From a virus: a stretch of DNA of 64,000 bases. This document shows, piece after piece, positions 2,842 through 58,439 of this stretch. The stretch lies in the IMG/VR virus record IMGVR_UViG_3300045988_132388. One strand, written 5' to 3'. A program made the translations under genes and the position numbers. The notes beneath the pieces are model-generated. The model was not told where the DNA came from, ran no database searches, and was given only the letters and a program-made list of their open reading frames with translations. Within the stretch, counting starts at the first letter, position 1, and each line of letters starts with the position of its first letter.

Positions 2842-3333
2842 TCATCTTACTGTAATCGGAATAAAATCCGACAGCGACTTGCATGAAGTAGTTAGCGACA
2901 TCTGCTCTTCAGTCTGCGAAACATTTGTAGTCGCATTGAAGGAAAAGGTGTTTGGTAACGTGTAACAAAGGTACAACTGCCCGTCTTCACGACGAATCAC
3001 AATATAGCAATCCTCCTCTTCGATAGCTATTTTTCTCTGTGTTTCGCGCACATTTTCCTTTCCGTCAGTGATTGTTGCACTTATTTCTAAAGAAAACAGC
3101 GTTTGGGAACCCATTTTACTGATAGTGGATTTAGCGGTCAAGGTTTCGGCAACCACCAGTGATTTATCCTGTGTGGCTATATGTAGAAGAGCATCGGTAA
3201 AACTACAGTTGTTGATATTCAGTATCTGTGCCACACTGAATGGCACAGGAATACTACTGCTTTTAGTAGGGTAGATGTAAACATCTGTTATTCCTGCAAG
3301 AAAAATCTCTTTGCAATTATCGGGTAAAACCAT
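2842..3333 (-). CDS. hypothetical protein
   Basis: 163-aa ORF co-oriented with its neighbours. No motif recognised. Confidence 0.6.
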   Translation of the reverse strand: MVLPDNCKEIFLAGITDVYIYPTKSSSIPVPFSVAQILNINNCSFTDALLHIATQDKSLVVAETLTAKSTISKMGSQTLFSLEISATITDGKENVRETQRKIAIEEEDCYIVIRREDGQLYLCYTLPNTFSFNATTNVSQTEEQMSLTTSCKSLSDFIPITVR

Positions 3334-3398: not shown

Positions 3399-4133
3399 TT
3401 AGTCCAACCATTGAAATTCATCAATATGATGACTACGTTCGGAGTCATCCCCATATTTCATGTCAAGACAGGAATACGACCGGAAGAAGTAGTGCTCCGC
3501 CTTGAGCCATCTTTCCACAATCCGGCGCATATTATCCTTCTCTTCCTTCGTGGGGTCTATGCCATAACGCATCAGAAAACGCTCAAGCATGGCAGCTTTG
3601 CTACGGGCTACGATTCTGCCGTTTGCCGTGCAATAGTCAAAGGTGGCAAGCACCCATTCCACTACGCTGCGCTTGAAGTCGTTGTTCAATGATTCAAGGA
3701 GCTTGTACACCCCATGCTTATCAAGATTCCACGTAGGAGTAACCACGCGAACGGTATCTATAACTTCAATCTCGTTGGGCAATTTTATACAGAGAAAGTC
3801 TTCATTGTCGCTCCTGCTGTAATCCTTATACCCATTGAGCTGCTGCACCTCTGCAAAGGTAAGATATTCCGAACTGTCACGCTTTACAACGACATTGCCT
3901 CCGAGAGGGTGTCTACCGTTCATCATGTTGCGCCACTGCTGATGGGAGAAGCACTGTGCGTTCACTTGTTGTGTAACGGCATCCGCATTGGACAGGGAGT
4001 TGCGCATCAGGAAGTGCTCAGGCATGTACATGTTGAATACTACAGGCTCGTTCTTGGCAAGAGTTTTGTTCGGGTCACGGTGGCGAAAATACTGACACCG
4101 GCTCGTAGGTAGACGAAGATAGATGTTAGGCAT
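3399..4133 (-). CDS. hypothetical protein
   Basis: 244-aa ORF ending 12 nt from the next gene. No motif recognised. Confidence 0.65.
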   Translation of the reverse strand: MPNIYLRLPTSRCQYFRHRDPNKTLAKNEPVVFNMYMPEHFLMRNSLSNADAVTQQVNAQCFSHQQWRNMMNGRHPLGGNVVVKRDSSEYLTFAEVQQLNGYKDYSRSDNEDFLCIKLPNEIEVIDTVRVVTPTWNLDKHGVYKLLESLNNDFKRSVVEWVLATFDYCTANGRIVARSKAAMLERFLMRYGIDPTKEEKDNMRRIVERWLKAEHYFFRSYSCLDMKYGDDSERSHHIDEFQWLD

Positions 4134-6498: not shown

Positions 6499-7080
6499 TT
6501 AATCAGTAAAAGTAGACGAGGTTTCGCCAAAGGGACTGAGCTTATCCATGACAAATGGTATAGTACAGACATATTGCGCTACTTTATAGCGTAGGTCTTC
6601 TTTCGACATACCTCCATTGTTAAATATTCTGCGGTCGAATTTAATCCCCATAGCTGCATTCAGACGCTCCACGTCCCGCAATATACGTGAGAGCTTGACA
6701 CCTCTTGCCAAACGTGTTACTGTAGAACTTTTGATATAAAAGGAATATATCTGAATTTCGGGATGACGATCTTTCATGTCTATCAATCCGACTTCATCCA
6801 CAATATAGATAGCTATATCTTTCACCTGATCTACAGTAGCCCAATATTCATAGCCACCATACTGTGTATATGCTAACACCTCATCAGGATCCACATTAAA
6901 CTCTTTTACAAAATGATGCTCTCTGCCTTCCTGTTCTCCTTCACGCATAGGACGTGTGGTATAGGAACAGATAATAGGCCAGTCTGTCATTTCTGACATT
7001 ATCCGAGCTACAGTGTCCTTTCCTGCACCGCTCAGACCGGTAATTGTTATTAGTTTCATATCAATCTTCTTTATATTCAC
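6499..7080 (-). CDS. guanylate-kinase-like dNMP kinase
   Basis: 193 aa. It has the P-loop ITGLSGAGKDT and YTTRPMREGEQEGREHHFV, a GMP-kinase-type motif. The start could instead be the internal Met at 7059, which would remove the 20-nt overlap with the upstream gene. Confidence 0.8.
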   Translation of the reverse strand: MNIKKIDMKLITITGLSGAGKDTVARIMSEMTDWPIICSYTTRPMREGEQEGREHHFVKEFNVDPDEVLAYTQYGGYEYWATVDQVKDIAIYIVDEVGLIDMKDRHPEIQIYSFYIKSSTVTRLARGVKLSRILRDVERLNAAMGIKFDRRIFNNGGMSKEDLRYKVAQYVCTIPFVMDKLSPFGETSSTFTD

Positions 7081-8167
7081 TCAAAAGAGCGTTGCCGCAG
7101 GTTATTCTATCCTCGTCCTCTTCCACAGAAGGAACAAAAACAATCACATCCCAACCTGCCTTGACAAGCGGTTGTTCAAACTGTTTGTAAACATCGTATG
7201 TGTAATATCCCTCCTCAGTCTGAATGCCATTACTTATAGCCTCTTTTGTCTCGTGAATAGGAGTTATCTTTACAATGAACTTTTCCTTATCAAAGAGTTT
7301 GTCCAAAACGGCAGGGTCTAATATCGTGTCTTTAGTGACAGGAAAATTCAACGTGTACTTTCTGCCGACCGGCATAGGTAAATCACGGCAAATCTCTGAG
7401 ATTTCCTGCAAAGTCAAGGATCGACCACGGAACAAATCATTACGCTGCTCTTCATCTGTAGAGTTTATAGACAACTGCAATCCGGCTTCACCTCTAAACT
7501 CGTAGTTCTTGAGTTGACAGAACTCACCAAGAATACGTTTCAGAGTTTTGCTTCCCAAAGAACCCGGAAGCATGGTCGTAAATACAGGATGGATAACATC
7601 TGCATCCATGAATACGTTGACATCATCCCTGAGATAGCACAGCAAATATATCTTGATGTTATTCCAGTTGAATGACGGTTCGCCCATACGAGCCAGATGA
7701 AGGTTGAAACGCTTGGTGTGCTGACACTCCGAACGAACGATAGCCGATATTACTTCTTCTCGCAGATCGCTAACCTTAGCATTACCGTGGAAACCGACTT
7801 TAGGGCAGTCACAGAACTTACATTTCATCGGACATCCTTTTTGAGTGGAAATAGTAACAACCATCTTATCCTCAAGATCTACCTTCTTATGGGTTACACC
7901 ATTAATTTCCTTAGTCAATCCAAGGAAGTCCGCCTTTATGTTGGCTTCCTTGCCATAGTCGCCAACATATAAATATTCAAGACATTTTTTAGTATCACTA
8001 AAAATTGCTCCAGTACGAGTCTTAGATTCTTTAATCATAATAGAAATACATATCGTTTTATTGATATTTTCAATCTTTAATTCAAATGGACGAGAAGTTA
8101 TAAAACGAGGTGAGCCACATTCTTTATACGGCACTTCTGTGATAGTGATGGCGATAGTGATAGCCAC
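7061..8167 (-). CDS. RlmN/Cfr-like radical SAM RNA methyltransferase homologue
   Basis: [36 protein letters not shown] parallels the E. coli RlmN stretch [47 protein letters not shown] parallels MGMGEPLLNLNNV. The C-terminal ITCGNAL parallels AACGQL. The annotated start is GTG at 8167; an ATG at 8038 is an alternative. Confidence 0.75.
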   Translation of the reverse strand: [368 protein letters not shown]

Positions 8168-8190
8168 CGCAGTCGGGTGATAGTGATAGC
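8141..8190. repeat. three copies of GATAGTGAT(G/A)GC
   Basis: Copies lie at 8141-8152, 8153-8164 (in tandem with the first) and 8179-8190. They sit between the tRNA-like RNA and the radical SAM gene. If the GTG start is real they encode AITIAITI; otherwise they lie in the leader. Confidence 0.6.
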
Positions 8191-8204
8191 GAAATAAAAG
8201 ATGT

Positions 8205-8350
8205 TGACTGCGGAGTGATTTTCGCGCAATACTTGCTCTAACCAGCTGAGCTACTTTTCTTCCGAAAAGAAAAGATAGGATTCGAACCTATGACCTCGTG
8301 AGACACGTTTCGGAAAAACGTATGATTCACTAAAAAGAAAACTCCGTATG
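8205..8350 (-). ncRNA. circularly permuted tRNA-like RNA (YrlA/Y-RNA-like topology)
   Basis: The minus strand from 8300 to 8231 reads AGGTC ATAGG-TTCGAAT-CCTAT CTTTTCTT-TTCGG-AAGAAAAG TA GCTC-AGCTGGTTA-GAGC A. In order this gives variable loop, T arm, both acceptor strands closed by a loop, U8-A9, D arm and A26. There is no anticodon arm. The flanks (8337-8346 and 8211-8223) are complementary. Outer boundaries are approximate. Confidence 0.6.
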
Positions 8351-8426
8351 CTATCAGTGTGAGGGTCAGTTTCACGGTACAAAACCTTCAGTCTGACCTT
8401 ACCCACCTCGTATTATATTTTATGTT

Positions 8427-9350
8427 TTACAAACCGTTGACCTCCGCATATATTCCCTGGAGATTATTAGGGATGATAATGCGCAGAGACGTTATCTCTT
8501 TGATTTCTTCCTGTTGCCACTCAACGAACATCGTCTGTAATCTCGACATTTCGGTATCGAAATTGTTTCTCTTTTCTTGATGTTCTGCATACTTCTTCTT
8601 GTATTCAGCCAATCGCTTGCTGTACTCCTTCTCGGCTTCAATGCGGAAACGATGCTCAATACCATTAAACTCAGCTTGCAATGCTCGATATTCGCCCTGA
8701 AGCTGAAAGAAGGTCCTGTTCAGTCGGTCGATGGTACCGGGTTCAACATTATAAGAGAACACGACCATATCGCGGCCTTCACCTTCTATCTCCGTAGGAT
8801 TAGCCAGACGGTGTGACACTCTCTTCAAGGCCAGAGGCAACAGTCCGTCGGGATGAATATACTTACCATACACCGCCATCTTGGTTTTCAACTCAATATA
8901 GCGGTTGCGATCCTTTACGTTCAGAATCTCGTTGCCCACCTTGTCAATATCGGAAACGGGGTCAGGAGCAACCGGCTTTTCAGGAAGAGTAATATTGTGA
9001 TCGTCAGCCCACACCATGAAGTTGCAGTCTTGCACTGACTTCAAACCTTTCTCACGTTCATTGATAGCCTCACGCAGCCAACCGATAAGGGCATTGCACT
9101 GAGCTACGCGACGTATAACATCGGGAATAGCATCAAGGGTGTCAAGAGGGGCTTCCACAATCGACGGCTGTGTATCCCCAAGCAGACGTGCGCTCTTGGT
9201 GTAAAGACGTAAGGTATCAGCCTGCGCTAAGATGCGCTGCGCATACTCTTTAGCCATGTTTGCAACATGGTTAGCAGATGTGGCTGTCAAACCTTCTTTC
9301 GCAAAAAATACTTTGTTCATATATATCGTTTTTTGTTCGTATTTTAACAT
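8427..9350 (-). CDS. hypothetical protein
   Basis: 307-aa ORF. An alternative start exists at the Met 10 codons downstream. No motif recognised. Confidence 0.7.
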   Translation of the reverse strand: MLKYEQKTIYMNKVFFAKEGLTATSANHVANMAKEYAQRILAQADTLRLYTKSARLLGDTQPSIVEAPLDTLDAIPDVIRRVAQCNALIGWLREAINEREKGLKSVQDCNFMVWADDHNITLPEKPVAPDPVSDIDKVGNEILNVKDRNRYIELKTKMAVYGKYIHPDGLLPLALKRVSHRLANPTEIEGEGRDMVVFSYNVEPGTIDRLNRTFFQLQGEYRALQAEFNGIEHRFRIEAEKEYSKRLAEYKKKYAEHQEKRNNFDTEMSRLQTMFVEWQQEEIKEITSLRIIIPNNLQGIYAEVNGL

Positions 9351-9514: not shown

Positions 9515-10618
9515 TCAATTCGTTCTTCCATATATTTCCCGCAGTTCTTCACGTGTAAGGAAAATATCACTCTTATGACACATTTTTATGAAAGTGTTTT
9601 CTGTTACTTTCGGATAATTGGCAAACTGCGGCCACATTCTTCTTAACTCCGACTCACGACGAGCATTAGAATCTGGTGGACGGAAACGTGATATACGTCT
9701 CCACATATCCAGTCCTGCCACATGGTCAATGCTATATAAAGAAATGCCACACTTCACCCACTCTTCATAATTACCCATAATGTCAATACCTTTTGCTTCT
9801 ATCTTGCTCACCAAACGCTGAGCCTTGAGGTAAACAATATCGGGAGTATCATCCTCCCAAGAAAATTTGCGGTATCCAGGATTACAACCCGAAGCACCAT
9901 TCGACACGTGCGAAAAGGTTCGATGATAACATGGCGCTGGTGTCAGTTCCACTTCGCTTACATTAAGCCCCTTGTACGCCACGGCACCTTTATTTATATA
10001 TATATGCCCAGGATCATCCCACGAGGCAAAGCGTACACGACCAATATTGCCACACTGTCTGTCGAGCATAATACCGAAAGCAGCATACTCTTTTAGTAGG
10101 GCTTTAAATTGTTCCTTATGTCGGTCCGGATAAGCAAGACGTACTAAGCCGAAACATCCCATACCACTACACGAACGCATCAATAAGGCTATCTCAGGGC
10201 GGAACTGGCAGACCATGCGGATATTCTCGAAATTGCTCAGTTGAGCATTATCTGCCAAGTCAATGTCTATGGCGAGCCATCCGGTATGCTGCTTCAGATG
10301 GGTTTCACGGCGCGACACAGGGGCGATATATTTGCTTCCGTCACGACGAGTACATTCGTCGTTGCGTATCTCAAAGAGTCCGCTCAATGTAGCACCAGGT
10401 AATCGCTTCTTGGTTTTAATATACTCAGGCATTTTCTTTGCCTTGGCTCCATACTCCTGGCGCAGGGCGCGAAGATGCTCCACATACGGCTTCCACCTTT
10501 CCGTCAGACAAAACTCACGGATAGACATCTGCTGAATACACTCCCCTGTCTCTTGGTCTACATATCGACCTACATTGTCAAGTGCGTCAGAATATATGGA
10601 ACATATCTCGTCGAACAT
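9515..10618 (-). CDS. VirE-N/BT4734-like primase-type domain protein
   Basis: 367 aa. TGWLAIDIDL, MRSCSGMGCFGLVRL and GRVRFASWDD resemble the primase-polymerase-like domain common in Bacteroidota mobile elements. The family call is from memory. Confidence 0.55.
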   Translation of the reverse strand: MFDEICSIYSDALDNVGRYVDQETGECIQQMSIREFCLTERWKPYVEHLRALRQEYGAKAKKMPEYIKTKKRLPGATLSGLFEIRNDECTRRDGSKYIAPVSRRETHLKQHTGWLAIDIDLADNAQLSNFENIRMVCQFRPEIALLMRSCSGMGCFGLVRLAYPDRHKEQFKALLKEYAAFGIMLDRQCGNIGRVRFASWDDPGHIYINKGAVAYKGLNVSEVELTPAPCYHRTFSHVSNGASGCNPGYRKFSWEDDTPDIVYLKAQRLVSKIEAKGIDIMGNYEEWVKCGISLYSIDHVAGLDMWRRISRFRPPDSNARRESELRRMWPQFANYPKVTENTFIKMCHKSDIFLTREELREIYGRTN

Positions 10619-13397: not shown

Positions 13398-14303
13398 ATG
13401 GAACTACGACATCTACGATCTTTTGTTTATGTGGCGGAAACTCTTTCATTTTCTGTCGCCGCCGACCGATGTTGCGTCACGCAATCGGCAATCAGTCAAC
13501 ACATCAAAACCCTGGAGGAAGAGCTGGGATGCAAACTACTAATTCGTACCTCGCACGACATTACGCTTACAGAATACGGCGAAGCTCTTTTGCCTCGCGC
13601 AAAGGACATACTAAAGCAGACCGCCGACTGTAAAGAACATATACATGCACTAAACAACTGCATGACCGGTGAGTTGCGTATTGGTGTTGGTTCGTTTATC
13701 GCTCCATATATCCGCGAGGCTGCAATCATTTTTATGGAGCGTTACCCTAACGTAAGGCTTAATGCTGAAATGACAAAAGCCACCAGCCTGAACCATCTGT
13801 TACGCAACCACGAACTCGACATAGCGTTCACGATGAACACAGCATATAAGAATGAGGGTATTGAATCTATACCGTGCATACCCTTCCATATCTACGCCAT
13901 AATGCGCAACACCCATCCATTGGCAAAACTGCCGGAGGTGTCATATAAGGATATGCTCTGCCACAGCGTTATTATGCCGGCTGTGGGGGAACGTGTGTTC
14001 AATACCTTTCAGCAATATATGCGACACGACCTTACGAAGCTCAACATCAAGTGTATAGTAAGTGATCCTGACGAAGACCTTGCTATCGTGGAGGAAAAAC
14101 AAAGCATAACTTTTATGCCTAAGCTTTATCTGAAGAACCACCCTACCCTCGTTGCCAAACCTATTGCTGAACTAAAGACAGCCCTTATGAGTAATGCTCA
14201 CTATATGCAGGACGTGCCTCTCAAACGCTCCGCACAGATATTCCTTGACATTATAAGACAAGAAGCAATACCATATATCCAGGAATTGGAGAAAACCTAT
14301 TGA
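13398..14303 (+). CDS. LysR-family transcriptional regulator
   Basis: 301 aa. The N-terminal wHTH signature is MELRHLRSFVYVAETLSFSVAADRCCVTQSAISQHIKTLEEELGCKLLIRT, and a C-terminal effector-binding-size domain follows. Confidence 0.9.
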   Translation: MELRHLRSFVYVAETLSFSVAADRCCVTQSAISQHIKTLEEELGCKLLIRTSHDITLTEYGEALLPRAKDILKQTADCKEHIHALNNCMTGELRIGVGSFIAPYIREAAIIFMERYPNVRLNAEMTKATSLNHLLRNHELDIAFTMNTAYKNEGIESIPCIPFHIYAIMRNTHPLAKLPEVSYKDMLCHSVIMPAVGERVFNTFQQYMRHDLTKLNIKCIVSDPDEDLAIVEEKQSITFMPKLYLKNHPTLVAKPIAELKTALMSNAHYMQDVPLKRSAQIFLDIIRQEAIPYIQELEKTY

Positions 14304-23105: not shown

Positions 23106-24161
23106 ATGAAAATAGGACTCATAGACGTGGACGGACGACACGGCAAAAAGAAATGGGGAGCTACGATATACCCTAACGTGGCTCTCGGCAAGATTGCACG
23201 TTGGCACACGAAGTGGGGCGACAAGGTTGAATGGGCTCAGCCTACCAACCTTTTCGACAGGCATCATTACGACATACTGTATGCCAGCAAGGTGTTCAAC
23301 TTTTCGCCCGACATCGACTTTCGACAGTTCTCATTCGGCCGACTGGAGAAGGGTGGCACTGGCTATGACATCTATAAGCGCCTGCCTGACGAGATAGACC
23401 GACTGCAACCGCTATATGAGTTGTTCCCATGGGTACCAAAGAACCATGCTTACGGCAAACTGACCGAAGGCTGTCCCAACAAGTGTTTCTGGTGTGTAGT
23501 GCCAAAGAAGGAAGGACTCATACGCCCGTACATGGATATAGAGGAGATAGCCATCGAGGGCAGAACGCACGTTGTGCTGATGGACAACAACATTCTTGCG
23601 GCGGGCGACTATGCCAAGAAGCAGCTTCAGAAGATAATCGACCTCGGTCTGCATATCGACTTCAATCAGGCGATGGACGCACGGCTTGTCACTCCCGAAT
23701 ATGCCGAGCTGTTAGGCAAGGTGAAATGGATAGACTCCCGCATCCGCTTTGGTTGCGACACCACCGCACAGATTGCAGAATGTGAGCGAGCCATGCAACT
23801 TATCAATGCGGCAGGATTCCGTGGCGAATATTTCCTATATACCATGATAGGCGGAAAGAACGACTTTCGAGAATGTTTCCACCGTCTGCACTACTGGTGG
23901 GAGCGACTGCAACGCTTCCGCAAGAACCATGAAGGCAGAGCCGTGTATGCCTACGCACAACCATACCGCGACCCTACAAATCCCAATCACGCCATCCCCG
24001 AATGGCAGAAGGATATGGCCCGATGGTGCAACAAGCGAATGATATTCTACGCCACCGATTTCAAGGACTTCATGCCAAGAAAAGGATTCAGGTGCGAGGA
24101 ATATCTGAGGGAATACGAAGTGAACGGAAACGGAATCGAGGCATCTACTGCCTGTAGGTGA
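23106..24161 (+). CDS. radical SAM protein with a B12-binding-like N-terminal domain
   Basis: 351 aa. The CxxxCxxC motif GCPNKCFWC follows a Rossmann-like N-terminus (MKIGLIDVDG...). Confidence 0.75.
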   Translation: MKIGLIDVDGRHGKKKWGATIYPNVALGKIARWHTKWGDKVEWAQPTNLFDRHHYDILYASKVFNFSPDIDFRQFSFGRLEKGGTGYDIYKRLPDEIDRLQPLYELFPWVPKNHAYGKLTEGCPNKCFWCVVPKKEGLIRPYMDIEEIAIEGRTHVVLMDNNILAAGDYAKKQLQKIIDLGLHIDFNQAMDARLVTPEYAELLGKVKWIDSRIRFGCDTTAQIAECERAMQLINAAGFRGEYFLYTMIGGKNDFRECFHRLHYWWERLQRFRKNHEGRAVYAYAQPYRDPTNPNHAIPEWQKDMARWCNKRMIFYATDFKDFMPRKGFRCEEYLREYEVNGNGIEASTACR

Positions 24162-57907: not shown

Positions 57908-58080
57908 GTGATAATTTTTGAAACTACCAAATAAAAAGCCGTTTTATTTCAAGTAAAATGTACTTTTATTGTTTTTCTACCTTTTTACACCGGATTCCCC
58001 ATATCTTCTGCGTCATCTGATGTTTTTTTAACAACAAATATCACATATTAGTGCGATTAGTGTCATTCGTTGTTTTCTCA

Positions 58081-58250
58081 TTGTCGCCCATCCAGGAGCT
58101 CGAACCTGGCGCCACGCCTTGCCGTGGTGGGCGTTGCGCTGTGGCTATCCTCACGGACCGCCAGCAGCTAAAAAAATACTCTGAGTATCATTATGCAAGA
58201 TCCCGCCGAAGGAGTCGAACCGTCGCAAAGGCCGTGCCGGACGCGGGATG
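58081..58250 (-). ncRNA. structured RNA element, copy 1 (two T-arm-like minihelices plus a GNRA hairpin)
   Basis: The minus sense reads ATCCCGC...GACGG-TTCGACT-CCTTC-G-GCGGGAT, then a U-run. Next comes the hairpin GCTGCTGGCGGTCC-GTGA-GGATAGCCACAGC. It ends with CGCCCA-CCACG-GCAAGG-CGTGG-CG-CCAGG-TTCGAGCT-CCTGG-A-TGGGCG. A second copy lies at 59591-59757. Confidence 0.55.
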
Positions 58251-58259
58251 GGGTGCGTT

Positions 58260-58439
58260 TTAGAACGTCTGACGGAGGCAAGAGAACAGTACATCAAGTC
58301 CTGAGTTGTACTCTATACGCTCCTTGCTGCTGAACTCGTCGAGGTTGGGAGGTGTCAGGGTGATGTACTCGATAATGCGTGTCATTGCCTCACGGAGGCT
58401 CTCTTTATCCATATCTATTGTTATAACTGTCTTTTCCAT
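58260..58439 (-). CDS. small hypothetical protein (59 aa)
   Basis: Hand-translated MEKTVITIDMDKESLREAMTRIIEYITLTPPNLDEFSSKERIEYNSGLDVLFSCLRQTF. The stop abuts RNA element copy 1. Confidence 0.45.
   Translation of the reverse strand: MEKTVITIDMDKESLREAMTRIIEYITLTPPNLDEFSSKERIEYNSGLDVLFSCLRQTF

What the first reader, a model, noticed from the sequence alone, without database searches (positions are those of the whole stretch)
8205..8350. Circularly permuted tRNA-like RNA: T arm, loop-closed acceptor stem, D arm, no anticodon arm
The minus strand from 8300 to 8231 reads, without gaps:
- AGGTC, the variable loop.
- ATAGG-TTCGAAT-CCTAT, the T arm.
- CTTTTCTT-TTCGG-AAGAAAAG, both acceptor strands joined by a 5-nt loop.
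- TA, equivalent to U8 and A9.
- GCTC-AGCTGGTTA-GAGC, the D arm with G18 and G19.
- A, equivalent to A26.

Every junction length matches a canonical tRNA, but the order is 3' half then 5' half, and there is no anticodon arm. The flanks can instead close the domain. CGGAG (8346-8342) pairs with CTCCG (8215-8211). UUUUC (8341-8337) pairs with GAAAA (8223-8219), leaving a 3-nt bulge. An extra hairpin ACGUUU-UUCCG-AAACGU (8321-8305) lies in between.

This is the topology described for bacterial Y-RNA-like (YrlA) tRNA mimics. No Ro/Rsr (TROVE) gene is in the window, and the downstream neighbour is an RlmN/Cfr-like RNA methyltransferase homologue. The RNA could be a decoy, scaffold or dedicated substrate for a tRNA-recognising enzyme in a phage. 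This pairing is the best candidate in the window for an undescribed RNA-protein system.
Basis: partly seen in the sequence, partly recalled or inferred. Interest (0 to 1): 0.85.

Follow-up and report, generated by a model that had tools for sequence, protein, structure and literature searches.

The report
tRNA mimic inside large phage RNA
The flagged tRNA-like piece is real, but it is one module of a conserved, roughly 310-base folded RNA that follows an unnamed 307-residue gene in Prevotella/Bacteroidales-type phages, resembles the tRNA-like domain of bacterial Y RNAs without any Ro60 gene nearby, and is not tied to the neighbouring radical SAM gene.

Summary
The minus strand 8296-8234 does read variable loop, T arm, loop-closed acceptor hairpin, U8-A9, D arm and A26. 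Rfam's YrlA model matches it at 33.6 bits, below the gathering score of 69.

The module is embedded in a larger structured RNA, about 8417 to 8099 on the minus strand. This RNA fills the gap after the 307-aa gene. A long-range helix (P1) closes it and runs into a U-tract.

Across four clades, 62 predicted pairs are 98.6% paired and 14 show compensatory changes. Slid controls show 0-2. The tRNA 15:48 tertiary pair also switches between G:C and A:U.

The radical SAM gene is an insertion. The closest relatives carry the RNA directly upstream of the dNMP kinase gene.

No Ro60/TROVE gene was found in the window or in about 50 related loci. Control phage YrlA-like RNAs do sit beside Ro60 genes.

Distant relatives keep P1, a 5' hairpin (P2) and pyrimidine-rich hexamer repeats, but carry 0-2 permuted tRNA modules.

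Function is inferred: a co-transcribed 3'-end RNA whose tRNA-elbow mimic engages host tRNA enzymes.

Verdict: real and undescribed, a new variant of a known kind of tRNA mimic.

The parts
8099..8417 (-). Whole structured RNA (about 310-320 nt), from just after the stop codon of the 307-aa gene to the U-tract.
   Evidence: RNAalifold and pair counts on A3 and A6. Single-sequence fold z = -4.0. Inverted repeat I1.
8401..8417 (-). P1 5' strand: UAUAAUACGAGGUGGGU (core ACGAGGUGGGU at 8411-8401).
   Evidence: Pairs with 8115-8099. Four pairs show compensatory changes between clades. I1 is 14 nt and 93% complementary.
8099..8115 (-). P1 3' strand, GCUCACCUCGUUUUAUA, which includes the U-run 8105-8102.
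   Evidence: The same closure followed by T-runs, with different sequences, occurs in L215, L221, L225 and L287.
8364..8398 (-). P2 hairpin: GGUCAG...CUGACC, with an internal UGAA/UGAA motif (ACUGAAGG / GUGAAA).
   Evidence: Conserved in all clades. It covaries to GCCGCAG/CUGCGGC in L212-L215 and to GGUCGG/CCGACC in L225.
8357..8359 (-). P3 5' strand (CAC), pairing with 8118-8116.
   Evidence: Two of three pairs are compensatory.
8344..8350 (-). P4 5' strand (CAUACGG), pairing with CCGUAUA at 8131-8125.
   Evidence: Seven pairs, 99.1% paired, with no double changes.
8328..8332 (-). P5 5' strand (UAGUG), pairing with CACUA at 8147-8143. Alternative partners exist, so this is the least certain helix.
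8305..8321 (-). V-type hairpin ACGUUU-UUCCG-AAACGU.
   Evidence: A hairpin is kept in the window, L006 and L216 clades with different stem sequences, and only weakly in L219. Loops include UUCCG, UCCG, UUCG and GCAA.
8292..8296 (-). Variable-loop equivalent AGGUC (C48).
   Evidence: N15:N48 is G:C in 12 sequences, A:U in 10, and other in 3.
8275..8291 (-). T arm ATAGG-TTCGAAT-CCTAT.
   Evidence: Two pairs are compensatory.
8254..8274 (-). Acceptor-stem equivalent closed by a short variable loop.
   Evidence: Inverted repeat I4. Two pairs are compensatory and the loop varies in sequence and length.
8235..8253 (-). U8-A9 and the D arm GCTC-AGCTGGTTA-GAGC.
   Evidence: Rfam YrlA alignment.
8167..8213 (-). 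3' hairpin (P9): CCGCAGUC (8213-8206) pairs with GACUGCGG (8174-8167). The loop carries repeat copies.
   Evidence: Inverted repeat I3. Two pairs are compensatory and one varies on one side only.
8138..8190 (-). Three copies of a 15-nt direct repeat GCUAUCACUAUCRCC, with hexamer periodicity.
   Evidence: Repeat family D1. Analogous pyrimidine-rich hexamer repeats occur in every clade.
8427..9350 (-). Upstream 307-aa gene of unknown function, the conserved genomic partner of the RNA.
   Evidence: Synteny is kept from 96% down to about 30% protein identity. The protein has no family name or fold match.

Best explanation
The flagged sequence is the tRNA-like module of a structured RNA of about 310 nt, at window 8417 to 8099 on the minus strand.

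What is shown:
- The RNA lies immediately downstream of the 307-aa gene.
- No promoter was recognised: none of the four sigma-70-type scan hits is on the minus strand (a scan type that may not apply to this host), and reading by eye for Bacteroidetes-type motifs found none.
- It is closed by a long-range helix (P1) whose 3' strand runs into a U-tract.
- It contains a conserved 5' hairpin (P2), a V hairpin, the module (T arm, loop-closed acceptor, D arm), a 3' hairpin and pyrimidine-rich repeats.
- The helices and the tRNA 15:48 tertiary pair covary, so the module folds like the tRNA elbow, as the tRNA-like domain of YrlA does.

What is inferred:
- The RNA is co-transcribed with the 307-aa gene, as its 3' end or as an intergenic RNA.
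- The P1/U-tract gives a partial stop or a protected 3' end.
- The tRNA mimic works by engaging host enzymes that recognise tRNA shape. These include RNase P at the acceptor loop and TruB- or Dus-type modifiers, as shown experimentally for YrlA.
- This would give a nuclease-resistant domain and/or a processing site between the replication gene and the nucleotide-metabolism genes.

The RNA does not depend on a Ro60 gene encoded beside it. It is not a partner of the radical SAM gene.

In the wider family the tRNA modules are exchangeable cargo, 0-2 per RNA, on a conserved P1-P2-repeat scaffold.
For: - Sequence anatomy and the YrlA model match.
- Conservation in 12 close contigs and in further clades.
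- Structure on A3: 65 pairs, 99.3% paired, 9 compensatory.
- Structure on A6, four clades: 62 pairs, 98.6% paired, 14 compensatory, against 0-2 in slid controls.
- Distant clade A7: 89 pairs, 30 compensatory, same architecture.
- Invariant G-U pairs in P1 (columns 28:338 and 26:340) fit only this strand.
- P1 was found independently as a 14-nt inverted repeat 291 nt apart.
- Fold z = -4.0 for the full RNA.
- Levitt-pair switching.
- The noncoding block is 65-75% identical between clades whose flanking protein is 57-78% identical.
- Indels of 1-2 nt rule out coding.
- Synteny with the 300-aa gene holds while the downstream gene varies.
- In relatives the kinase ATG follows the U-run by about 12 nt, so read-through must occur.
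- RNase P, TruB and DusA acting on YrlA is from PMC4201824.
Against: - There is no expression data, so the transcript ends are inferred.
- The simple terminator scan finds nothing here, because P1 is not a compact hairpin.
- No double compensatory change supports P4 or P5, and P5 has alternative partners.
- All covariation comes from a few clades, so it represents few independent events.
- Family members with no tRNA module (L226, L287, L222) show the module is not essential to the scaffold, so the scaffold's own function is unexplained.
- The direct repeats could be DNA-level protein sites.
Confidence: 0.55

Rival explanations
1. It is a true Y RNA (YrlA) that works in trans with a Ro60/Rsr protein supplied by the host or encoded elsewhere in the phage. 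It would tether Rsr to an exonuclease such as PNPase.
For: - Same T, acceptor stem-loop, D order with a V hairpin.
- Ends paired into a long stem, as in Y RNAs.
- Rfam YrlA match at 33.6 bits.
- Phage YrlA-like RNAs that do sit next to Ro60 genes score no better, at 34-46 bits.
- Most of those controls also lack an exact GNCGAA motif.
Against: - Pfam finds no TROVE domain in any window ORF tested, covering all ORFs of 291 aa or more plus several of 130-259 aa.
- tblastn of 9 phage Ro60-like proteins against the window and about 50 family loci gives nothing at E <= 0.05.
- In contrast, 7 of 9 control loci have a Ro60-like gene within about 1 kb, most directly adjacent.
- GNCGAAN0-1G is absent from all 25 family sequences.
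- At about 310 nt the RNA is well above the 80-130 nt of characterised Y RNAs (PMC4201824).
- Scaffold relatives exist without any tRNA module.
Confidence: 0.12
2. It is an anti-defence decoy or sponge. The tRNA mimic would titrate a host tRNA-targeting nuclease or tRNA-binding toxin during infection or conjugative entry.
For: - The 300-aa gene family, with the P2/repeat scaffold, also occurs in integrative-element-like contexts next to ArdA, DUF4120, YAcAr and Macro genes.
- Other clades keep an anticodon-type hairpin with a conserved UUGCUAA loop.
- The modules vary in number and type, as expected under an arms race.
Against: - The window clade has lost the anticodon-type hairpin, and its acceptor end is closed. 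The usual nuclease targets (anticodon loop, CCA end) are therefore absent.
- No defence or anti-defence gene was identified next to it in the window.
- The idea is purely contextual.
Confidence: 0.13
3. The conserved block is mainly a DNA element. The 15-nt direct repeats would be binding sites, such as origin iterons or a partition site, for the 307-aa protein encoded next to a primase gene. The tRNA-like parts would be captured tRNA gene fragments.
For: - Three 15-nt direct repeats, with analogous hexamer repeats in every clade, including members without tRNA modules.
- The position is beside a PriCT_2 primase-like gene.
- The linkage is to the upstream protein gene rather than to any downstream gene.
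Against: - Long-range compensatory pairing with strand-specific G-U pairs.
- Levitt-pair switching.
- Stable tetraloop-type loop replacements.
- These are RNA-level signals that a double-stranded DNA site does not explain. The two roles could coexist.
Confidence: 0.1
4. The RNA is a decaying remnant of tandem tRNA genes, or a dedicated substrate or decoy for the neighbouring RlmN/Cfr-like radical SAM enzyme.
For: - The module sequences are tRNA-derived, and real tRNAs occur nearby in some relatives (L212).
- A radical SAM gene lies near the RNA in both the window and L006.
Against: - The two halves do not decay independently. The stems keep pairing through compensatory changes across clades.
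- The rSAM gene is absent next to the RNA in the close relatives.
- It sits on the other side of the 300-aa gene in L006.
- It occurs without the RNA in L002-L005 and in phage Versailles.
- Its similarity to RlmN is limited to the radical SAM core.
Confidence: 0.04

Closest known systems
YrlA (Y RNA-like, Rfam RF02553; Chen et al. 2014, PMC4201824)
   Same: - Same order of elements: V hairpin, T arm, loop-closed acceptor stem-loop, D arm.
- Conserved tRNA nucleotides: U8, A14, G18G19, the T-loop UUCGA.
- G15:C48 / A15:U48 switching.
- 5' and 3' flanks pair.
- It occurs in phages.
- Rfam gives a full-length match at 33.6 bits, similar to phage YrlA-like RNAs that lie beside Ro60 genes (34-46 bits).
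   Different: - No Ro60/TROVE gene beside it, and no GNCGAAN0-1G motif.
- About 310 nt instead of 80-130 nt.
- Extra conserved parts: the P2 hairpin, the 3' hairpin and the hexamer repeats.
- Fixed position after an unrelated 300-aa gene.
- In relatives the module number varies from 0 to 2.
Circularly permuted tRNA genes (Cyanidioschyzon merolae type) and two-piece (permuted) tmRNA genes
   Same: The 3' half (T arm and 3' acceptor strand) precedes the 5' half (5' acceptor strand and D arm) in the gene.
   Different: - The joining loop is only 3-7 nt, with no discriminator or CCA.
- There is no anticodon arm in the window clade.
- There is no tag reading frame or G3-U70.
- ARAGORN, which detects permuted tmRNA, finds nothing.
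- In two-module relatives the acceptor strands of neighbouring hairpins cannot pair to give a normal tRNA (L221).
Large ornate phage-associated RNAs that lie near tRNAs (GOLLD RF02032, ROOL)
   Same: A structured RNA of several hundred nucleotides, carried by phages, of unknown function and associated with tRNA-type sequences. In locus L072 a GOLLD RNA lies next to a YrlA-like RNA and tRNAs.
   Different: No sequence or structure match to any Rfam 15 family other than sub-threshold YrlA and tRNA. The host group and the scaffold are different.
tRNA-like RNase P substrates in bacterial and phage transcripts
   Same: A tRNA-shaped acceptor/T-arm stack within a longer transcript could direct RNase P cleavage. 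This was reported for M. smegmatis YrlA (PMC4201824).
   Different: Cleavage was not tested here. Those elements are minimal, whereas this one keeps a full D arm and tertiary pairs and sits in a large conserved fold.

Membership tests
YrlA / bacterial Y RNA | tRNA-like domain in the order T stem-loop, acceptor-type stem-loop, D stem-loop. | tested here: met
   Direct reading. Rfam YrlA alignment over model positions 1-114. Covariation in the T and acceptor stems.
YrlA / bacterial Y RNA | Score at or above the Rfam gathering threshold (69 bits). | tested here: not met
   33.6 bits. However, phage RNAs next to Ro60 genes also score only 34-46 bits, so this has little discriminating power.
YrlA / bacterial Y RNA | GNCGAAN0-1G motif near the 5' end, the proposed Rsr contact. 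| tested here: not met
   0 of 25 family sequences carry it. The CCGAA in the V-hairpin loop is replaced by GCAA in L146 and is absent in L006. The exact GNCGAA motif is also absent from all 10 control phage RNAs (one has GACGAGG under a relaxed pattern), so this test is weak.
YrlA / bacterial Y RNA | Gene encoded adjacent to a Ro60/Rsr (TROVE) gene. | tested here: not met
   No TROVE domain in the window ORFs. tblastn with 9 phage Ro60-like proteins against the window and about 50 family loci is negative. Controls are positive in 7 of 9 loci. The rest of the phage genome and the host were not searchable.
YrlA / bacterial Y RNA | Binds Ro60; modified by TruB and DusA. | not testable with these tools
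   Requires immunoprecipitation and modification mapping.
Canonical tRNA | Cloverleaf in the normal order, with an anticodon arm and a free acceptor end. | tested here: not met
   ARAGORN finds none. The Rfam tRNA model gives 17.3 bits on a partial match. The acceptor is closed by a loop and the window clade has no anticodon arm.
Permuted (two-piece) tmRNA | A permuted acceptor/T-arm piece plus a tag reading frame and pseudoknots. | tested here: not met
   ARAGORN reports no tmRNA. Rfam tmRNA gives no hit in 7900-8700.
Intrinsic terminator | A compact G+C-rich hairpin directly followed by a U-run. | tested here: inconclusive
   The scan finds none. A U-run at 8105-8102 does follow the 3' strand of P1, but the partner strand of P1 lies about 290 nt upstream.
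RlmN/Cfr family (neighbouring gene) | Whole-protein score above the NCBIfam cut-off. | tested here: not met
   TIGR00048 scores 41.9 bits against a cut-off of 290, matching residues 53-135 only. Pfam Radical_SAM scores 24.9 against 29.5. The PHROG family has unknown function.

The most novel reading that the evidence does not exclude
The P1-P2-hexamer-repeat scaffold is a new class of large modular RNA. It would be the dedicated partner of an uncharacterised 300-aa protein family in Bacteroidales phages and conjugative elements. It carries interchangeable circularly permuted tRNA modules (0-2 per RNA, of generic or Leu-like type, some with anticodon-type loops). It would act as a ribonucleoprotein during establishment of incoming mobile DNA, for example in anti-defence or in priming or replication control.
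Probability: 0.3. Interest if true: 0.9.

Novelty: new variant of a known kind. Interest (0 to 1): 0.7.

Why it matters
YrlA-type tRNA mimics have so far been defined by their link to Ro60. This family shows the same permuted tRNA module maintained by selection without a Ro60 gene beside it. The module sits inside a 300-460 nt fold that matched no Rfam 15 family and that I found described in no paper searched.

The fold is widespread in gut and other host-associated Prevotella/Bacteroidales-type phages. A module-free form follows the same gene in integrative-element-like contexts.

This gives a natural series with 0, half, 1 or 2 modules for asking what a tRNA elbow mimic does on its own.

It also ties a conserved RNA to a large protein family with no annotation: 366 homologues, no Pfam, PHROG, NCBIfam or PDB match.

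It also corrects annotation. The homologous region in GenBank record PQ006092 is called a hypothetical protein.

Tried and rejected
- Near and distant DNA searches of cultured and deposited phages with the region found nothing.
- Rfam at gathering threshold over the window and at permissive E-values over the locus found nothing beyond sub-threshold YrlA and tRNA. The same holds over six relatives.
- An alternative closing helix, AGUGA (8331-8327) with UCACU (8218-8214), looked compensatory by eye but does not hold in fixed alignment columns.
- Complementarity between the V-loop and the acceptor loop (8308-8318 with 8257-8267) is specific to the window and L140, so it was not used.
- The rSAM link was rejected.
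- The fold of the 307-aa protein gave no lead. The AlphaFold2 model has pLDDT 79.8. Foldseek against the PDB gives no hit at E < 0.001. BFVD gives only one uncharacterised phage protein.
- A profile search against PDB sequences found nothing.
- A scan of viral contigs for the P2 motif returned mostly chance matches. The only true hits among the new loci were four contigs already known from L212-L215, each with the 300-aa gene upstream; the remaining rows were window-clade loci already in hand.
- By eye I found no Bacteroidetes-type promoter (TTTG ... TAnnTTTG) upstream of P1. The sigma-70-type scan gave only plus-strand hits.
- The literature searches found no description of such an RNA.
- The supplementary tables of Chen 2014, which list species with Ro60, are not held.
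Full report
**1. The observation**

The minus strand of the window reads, without gaps:
- AGGTC (8296-8292)
- ATAGG-TTCGAAT-CCTAT (8291-8275)
- CTTTTCTT-TTCGG-AAGAAAAG (8274-8254)
- TA (8253-8252)
- GCTC-AGCTGGTTA-GAGC (8251-8235)
- A (8234)

The hairpin ACGTTT-TTCCG-AAACGT (8321-8305) lies upstream.

ARAGORN finds only tRNA-Met at 2650-2724. At gathering thresholds, Rfam finds only that tRNA.

A permissive Rfam search of 7900-8700 gives one meaningful hit. The YrlA model (RF02553) matches 8205-8316 on the minus strand over its full length, at 33.6 bits (gathering score 69) and E 2.1e-5. The score comes from the T arm, acceptor hairpin and D arm. The flanks align poorly.

The T-loop word GGTTCRANTCC occurs three times in the window, against 0.15 expected.

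The tRNA-like core is therefore real and not a chance match.

**2. The setting**

The window is a tailed-phage genome. It encodes:
- a tape measure protein, a terminase-like protein, ParA, an NAD-dependent ligase and a beta clamp;
- ThyX, MazG and a dNMP kinase-like protein;
- a PriCT_2 primase-like protein and a DNA methylase.

No deposited phage is close at the DNA level. The nearest named relative of any neighbouring gene is Bacteroides phage Versailles.

Copies of the RNA occur on contigs binned with a Prevotella sp. genome and with an uncultured Bacteroidales genome. The host is therefore probably Prevotella or another member of the Bacteroidales.

The genes around the RNA all lie on the minus strand, in this order:
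- primase-like gene (9515-10618)
- 307-aa gene of unknown function (8427-9350)
- the RNA
- radical SAM gene (true start at 8038, end at 7061)
- dNMP kinase-like gene, then ThyX, then MazG

**3. The radical SAM link fails**

- Eighteen viral contigs encode relatives of the radical SAM protein. In the six I aligned, including four with a 92-93% identical protein, the upstream region is unrelated and lacks the RNA.
- Phage Versailles has no intergenic space at that position.
- All 12 viral contigs found through the 307-aa protein carry the RNA at 89-99% identity. There it is followed directly by the kinase gene, which begins MKLITITGPSG.
- In the L006 clade the radical SAM gene lies upstream of the 300-aa gene.
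- The protein resembles RlmN only around the radical SAM cluster: 41.9 bits against a cut-off of 290.

**4. The RNA is much larger than flagged**

The conserved noncoding block runs from the stop codon of the 307-aa gene to a U-run, about 320 nt in all.

I collected 21 distinct sequences from two clades (A3). I then built a 16-sequence set spanning four clades, whose flanking protein is 96-57% identical to the window's (A6). The sequences came from viral, metagenome, genome and Logan/ENA sources.

RNAalifold gives one closed architecture on both alignments:

| Element | Window coordinates (minus strand) |
|---|---|
| P1 | 8411-8401 with 8115-8105, extending to 8417/8099 in the window |
| P2 hairpin | 8398-8364 |
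| P3 | 8359-8357 with 8118-8116 |
| P4 | 8350-8344 with 8131-8125 |
| P5 | 8332-8328 with 8147-8143 |
| V hairpin | 8321-8305 (not in the RNAalifold consensus) |
| T arm | 8291-8275 |
| Acceptor hairpin | 8274-8254 |
| D arm | 8251-8235 |
| 3' hairpin (P9) | 8213-8206 with 8174-8167 |

Support for this structure:
- On A6, 62 pairs are 98.6% paired and 14 pairs show changes on both sides.
- Versions slid by 1-3 columns give 0-2 such pairs and 35-54% pairing. No shuffle of 500 reached the observed covariation score.
- The repeat finder found P1 independently, as a 14-nt inverted repeat 291 nt apart. It also found P9 and the acceptor hairpin.
- The full 326 nt folds at -90.4 kcal/mol. Shuffles give -72.9 ± 4.4, so z = -4.0.
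- G-U pairs that never vary in P1 would be A-C mismatches on the other strand. The fold therefore belongs to the minus-strand RNA.
- Length differences of 1-2 nt in T-runs and loops exclude the small ORFs listed here.

They break in two clades. CTCCG overlaps the covarying P9.

**5. The module behaves as a folded tRNA mimic**

- The V hairpin is kept in the window, L006 and L216 clades with different stem sequences (only weakly in L219). Its loops are UUCCG, UCCG, UUCG or GCAA.
- The acceptor hairpin changes U-A to C-G at one pair. At another pair it passes through U-A, U-U and G-U. Its loop varies freely.
- The bases at tRNA positions 15 and 48 are G:C in 12 sequences, A:U in 10 and other in 3. 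Chen et al. reported the same switch for YrlA (PMC4201824).
- Two clades (L006 and L216) keep a hairpin after the D arm, at the anticodon-arm position. It shows compensatory stem changes and a conserved UUGCUAA-type loop. The window and L219 clades have lost it.

This is not what is seen.

**6. The wider family**

Relatives whose 300-aa protein is only 30-53% identical still have a gap of 300-480 nt after that gene. Examples are L212-L215, L221, L225 and L227.

These gaps keep three features:
- P1 followed by a T-run, with an entirely different sequence. An example is GAGACACAGG...CCTGTGTCTC followed by TTTT in L215.
- P2, with its ACUGAAGG...GAAA motif and a covarying stem.
- Pyrimidine-rich hexamer repeats.

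Their centres differ:
- Some have two permuted modules, in either order. One is of a Leu-like type with a TGGYGGAATYGGTAGAC D arm.
- L225 has one module with a CAA anticodon-type arm.
- L227 has only a T arm and a closed acceptor.

Folding five of them gives 89 pairs, 30 with compensatory changes, in the same layout.

Members at 34-39% protein identity keep a P2-like hairpin and the repeats but have no tRNA module. They lie in integrative-element-like contexts (ArdA, DUF4120, YAcAr, Macro), in another long contig (L226, neighbouring genes without Pfam hits), and in Bajarodcaudo virus 1.

The scaffold is therefore the constant part, and the tRNA modules are variable cargo.

The linkage is to the upstream gene. 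The downstream gene differs from one context to another.

**7. Comparison with YrlA**

Chen et al. 2014 define YrlA by four features:
- the T, acceptor stem-loop, D domain;
- an optional V stem-loop;
- a 5' GNCGAAN0-1G motif;
- a position next to a Ro60 (rsr) gene.

As a control I scanned viral contigs for a T-loop word followed by a D-arm word. About a dozen of 133 matches have a closed acceptor hairpin. In seven of nine loci tested, the neighbouring large ORF has a Ro60-type domain: TROVE or vWA_Ro60 in six, and the DUF2828/DUF7788 pair in one. These RNAs score only 34-46 bits on the Rfam model, so a sub-threshold score does not exclude membership.

For the window family, none of the other features is present:
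- Pfam finds no TROVE domain in any window ORF tested, covering all ORFs of 291 aa or more plus several of 130-259 aa.
- tblastn of nine phage Ro60-like proteins finds nothing in the window or in about 50 related loci.
- The GNCGAA motif is absent from all 25 sequences. It is also absent from all ten controls, so that test is weak.

I therefore file the module as working like the YrlA tRNA-like domain, but not as a demonstrated member of the Ro60-linked family. The rest of the phage genome and the host genomes could not be searched.

**8. How it most likely works**

Shown:
- It is a conserved, strand-specific RNA fold.
- It is closed by P1, which is followed by a U-tract.
- It lies directly after the 307-aa gene.
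- It contains an L-shape-competent tRNA mimic.

Inferred:
- It is co-transcribed with that gene. I recognised no promoter: the sigma-70-type scan gave only plus-strand hits and reading by eye found no Bacteroidetes-type motif. In relatives the next gene starts about 12 nt after the U-run, so read-through must occur.
- The P1/U-tract gives a partial stop or a protected 3' end.
- The module recruits enzymes that recognise tRNA shape. [quoted passage not shown] This would give a stable domain or a processing site.

I put about 0.9 on "structured RNA with a YrlA-type tRNA mimic". I put about 0.3 on the specific processing and stability role.

Rivals:
- a true Y RNA using a host Ro60 (0.12);
- a decoy for tRNA-targeting defence systems (0.13);
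- a DNA-level repeat site for the 307-aa protein with which the RNA fold coexists (0.10);
- a tRNA remnant or a radical SAM substrate (0.04).

**9. The partner protein**

The 307-aa protein has 366 homologues but no Pfam, PHROG, NCBIfam or PDB-sequence match.

An AlphaFold2 model (pLDDT 79.8) shows long helices and a small sheet. It has no significant PDB neighbour. Its only BFVD neighbour is an uncharacterised phage protein. Its role is unknown.

**10. Verdict**

The finding is real and is more extensive than described. The YrlA-like reading of the module holds. The closing stems and the radical SAM pairing do not.

No Rfam 15 family covers it, no deposited phage carries it, and no paper I could find describes it.

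Noticed in passing
window 58060-58265 (-): A second noncoding stretch follows a gene stop. It has two T-arm-like hairpins: GACGG-TTCGACT-CCTTC around 58211-58221, and CCAGG-TTCGAGCT-CCTGG near 58090-58110. There is no Rfam hit and no ARAGORN call.
   Followed up: partly
window 8138-8190 (-); also L212-L215, L221, L222, L225, L226, L287: Pyrimidine-rich repeats with hexamer periodicity sit in the 3' part of the element in every clade, including members with no tRNA module. Examples are GCUAUCACUAUC here and GCUCUUGCUCUUG or GUUCUUGUUCUUG elsewhere. It is unknown whether RNA or DNA is the relevant form.
   Followed up: partly
window 7061-8038 (-) and 23106-24161 (+): The window has two different radical SAM genes. 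The one next to the RNA is a mobile insertion. It lies downstream of the RNA here, upstream of the 300-aa gene in L006, and is absent in the closest relatives.
   Followed up: yes
window 8427-9350 (-); L222-L224: The 300-aa protein family has 366 homologues and no annotation in any library. It occurs in phages next to a PriCT_2 primase gene. It also occurs in Bacteroidales integrative-element-like regions next to ArdA, DUF4120, YAcAr and Macro genes.
   Followed up: partly
L006 6119-6135, L216 about 3590-3607, L225 about 3025-3045: A hairpin with a conserved UUGCUAA (GCU anticodon-like) loop recurs in three clades. It follows the D arm in L006 and L216 and precedes the T arm in L225. The window clade lacks it.
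   Followed up: partly
L221 about 3300-3330: The Leu-like module of this two-module relative has an anticodon-type hairpin, CGAAU-CUCUAAA-AUUCG. Its loop would read as a CUA (amber-reading) anticodon. The acceptor is closed, so decoding is unlikely.
   Followed up: no
L072 5852-6267 and 6459-6576: In an unrelated viral contig a GOLLD RNA (207.5 bits) lies about 190 nt upstream of a YrlA-like permuted tRNA mimic and a run of tRNAs.
   Followed up: no
L101 84-522, 4480-4704: Another viral contig combines a phage tmRNA, a long tRNA array and two or three YrlA-like matches.
   Followed up: no
L287 2418-2594 (PQ006092.1, 88046-88222): In Bajarodcaudo virus 1 the region homologous to the scaffold (P1, a P2-like hairpin, hexamer repeats, a T9 run) is annotated as a 58-aa hypothetical protein. 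This is probably a spurious call.
   Followed up: partly
window 8257-8267 and 8308-8318 (-): The loop region of the V hairpin (UUUUUCCGAAA) is 91% complementary to the acceptor-loop region (UUUCGGAAGAA). This is seen only in the window and L140, not in other clade members, so it is probably fortuitous.
   Followed up: yes
window 13398-14303 (+): A full-length LysR-type transcriptional regulator (HTH_1 plus LysR_substrate) is encoded within the phage genome.
   Followed up: no
L038 1-1713 and L099 1989-3653: Two phage loci carry YrlA-like RNAs inside tRNA arrays. Each has a neighbouring ORF of about 560 aa with no TROVE hit. These could be very divergent Ro60 proteins or further Ro60-independent cases.
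   Followed up: partly
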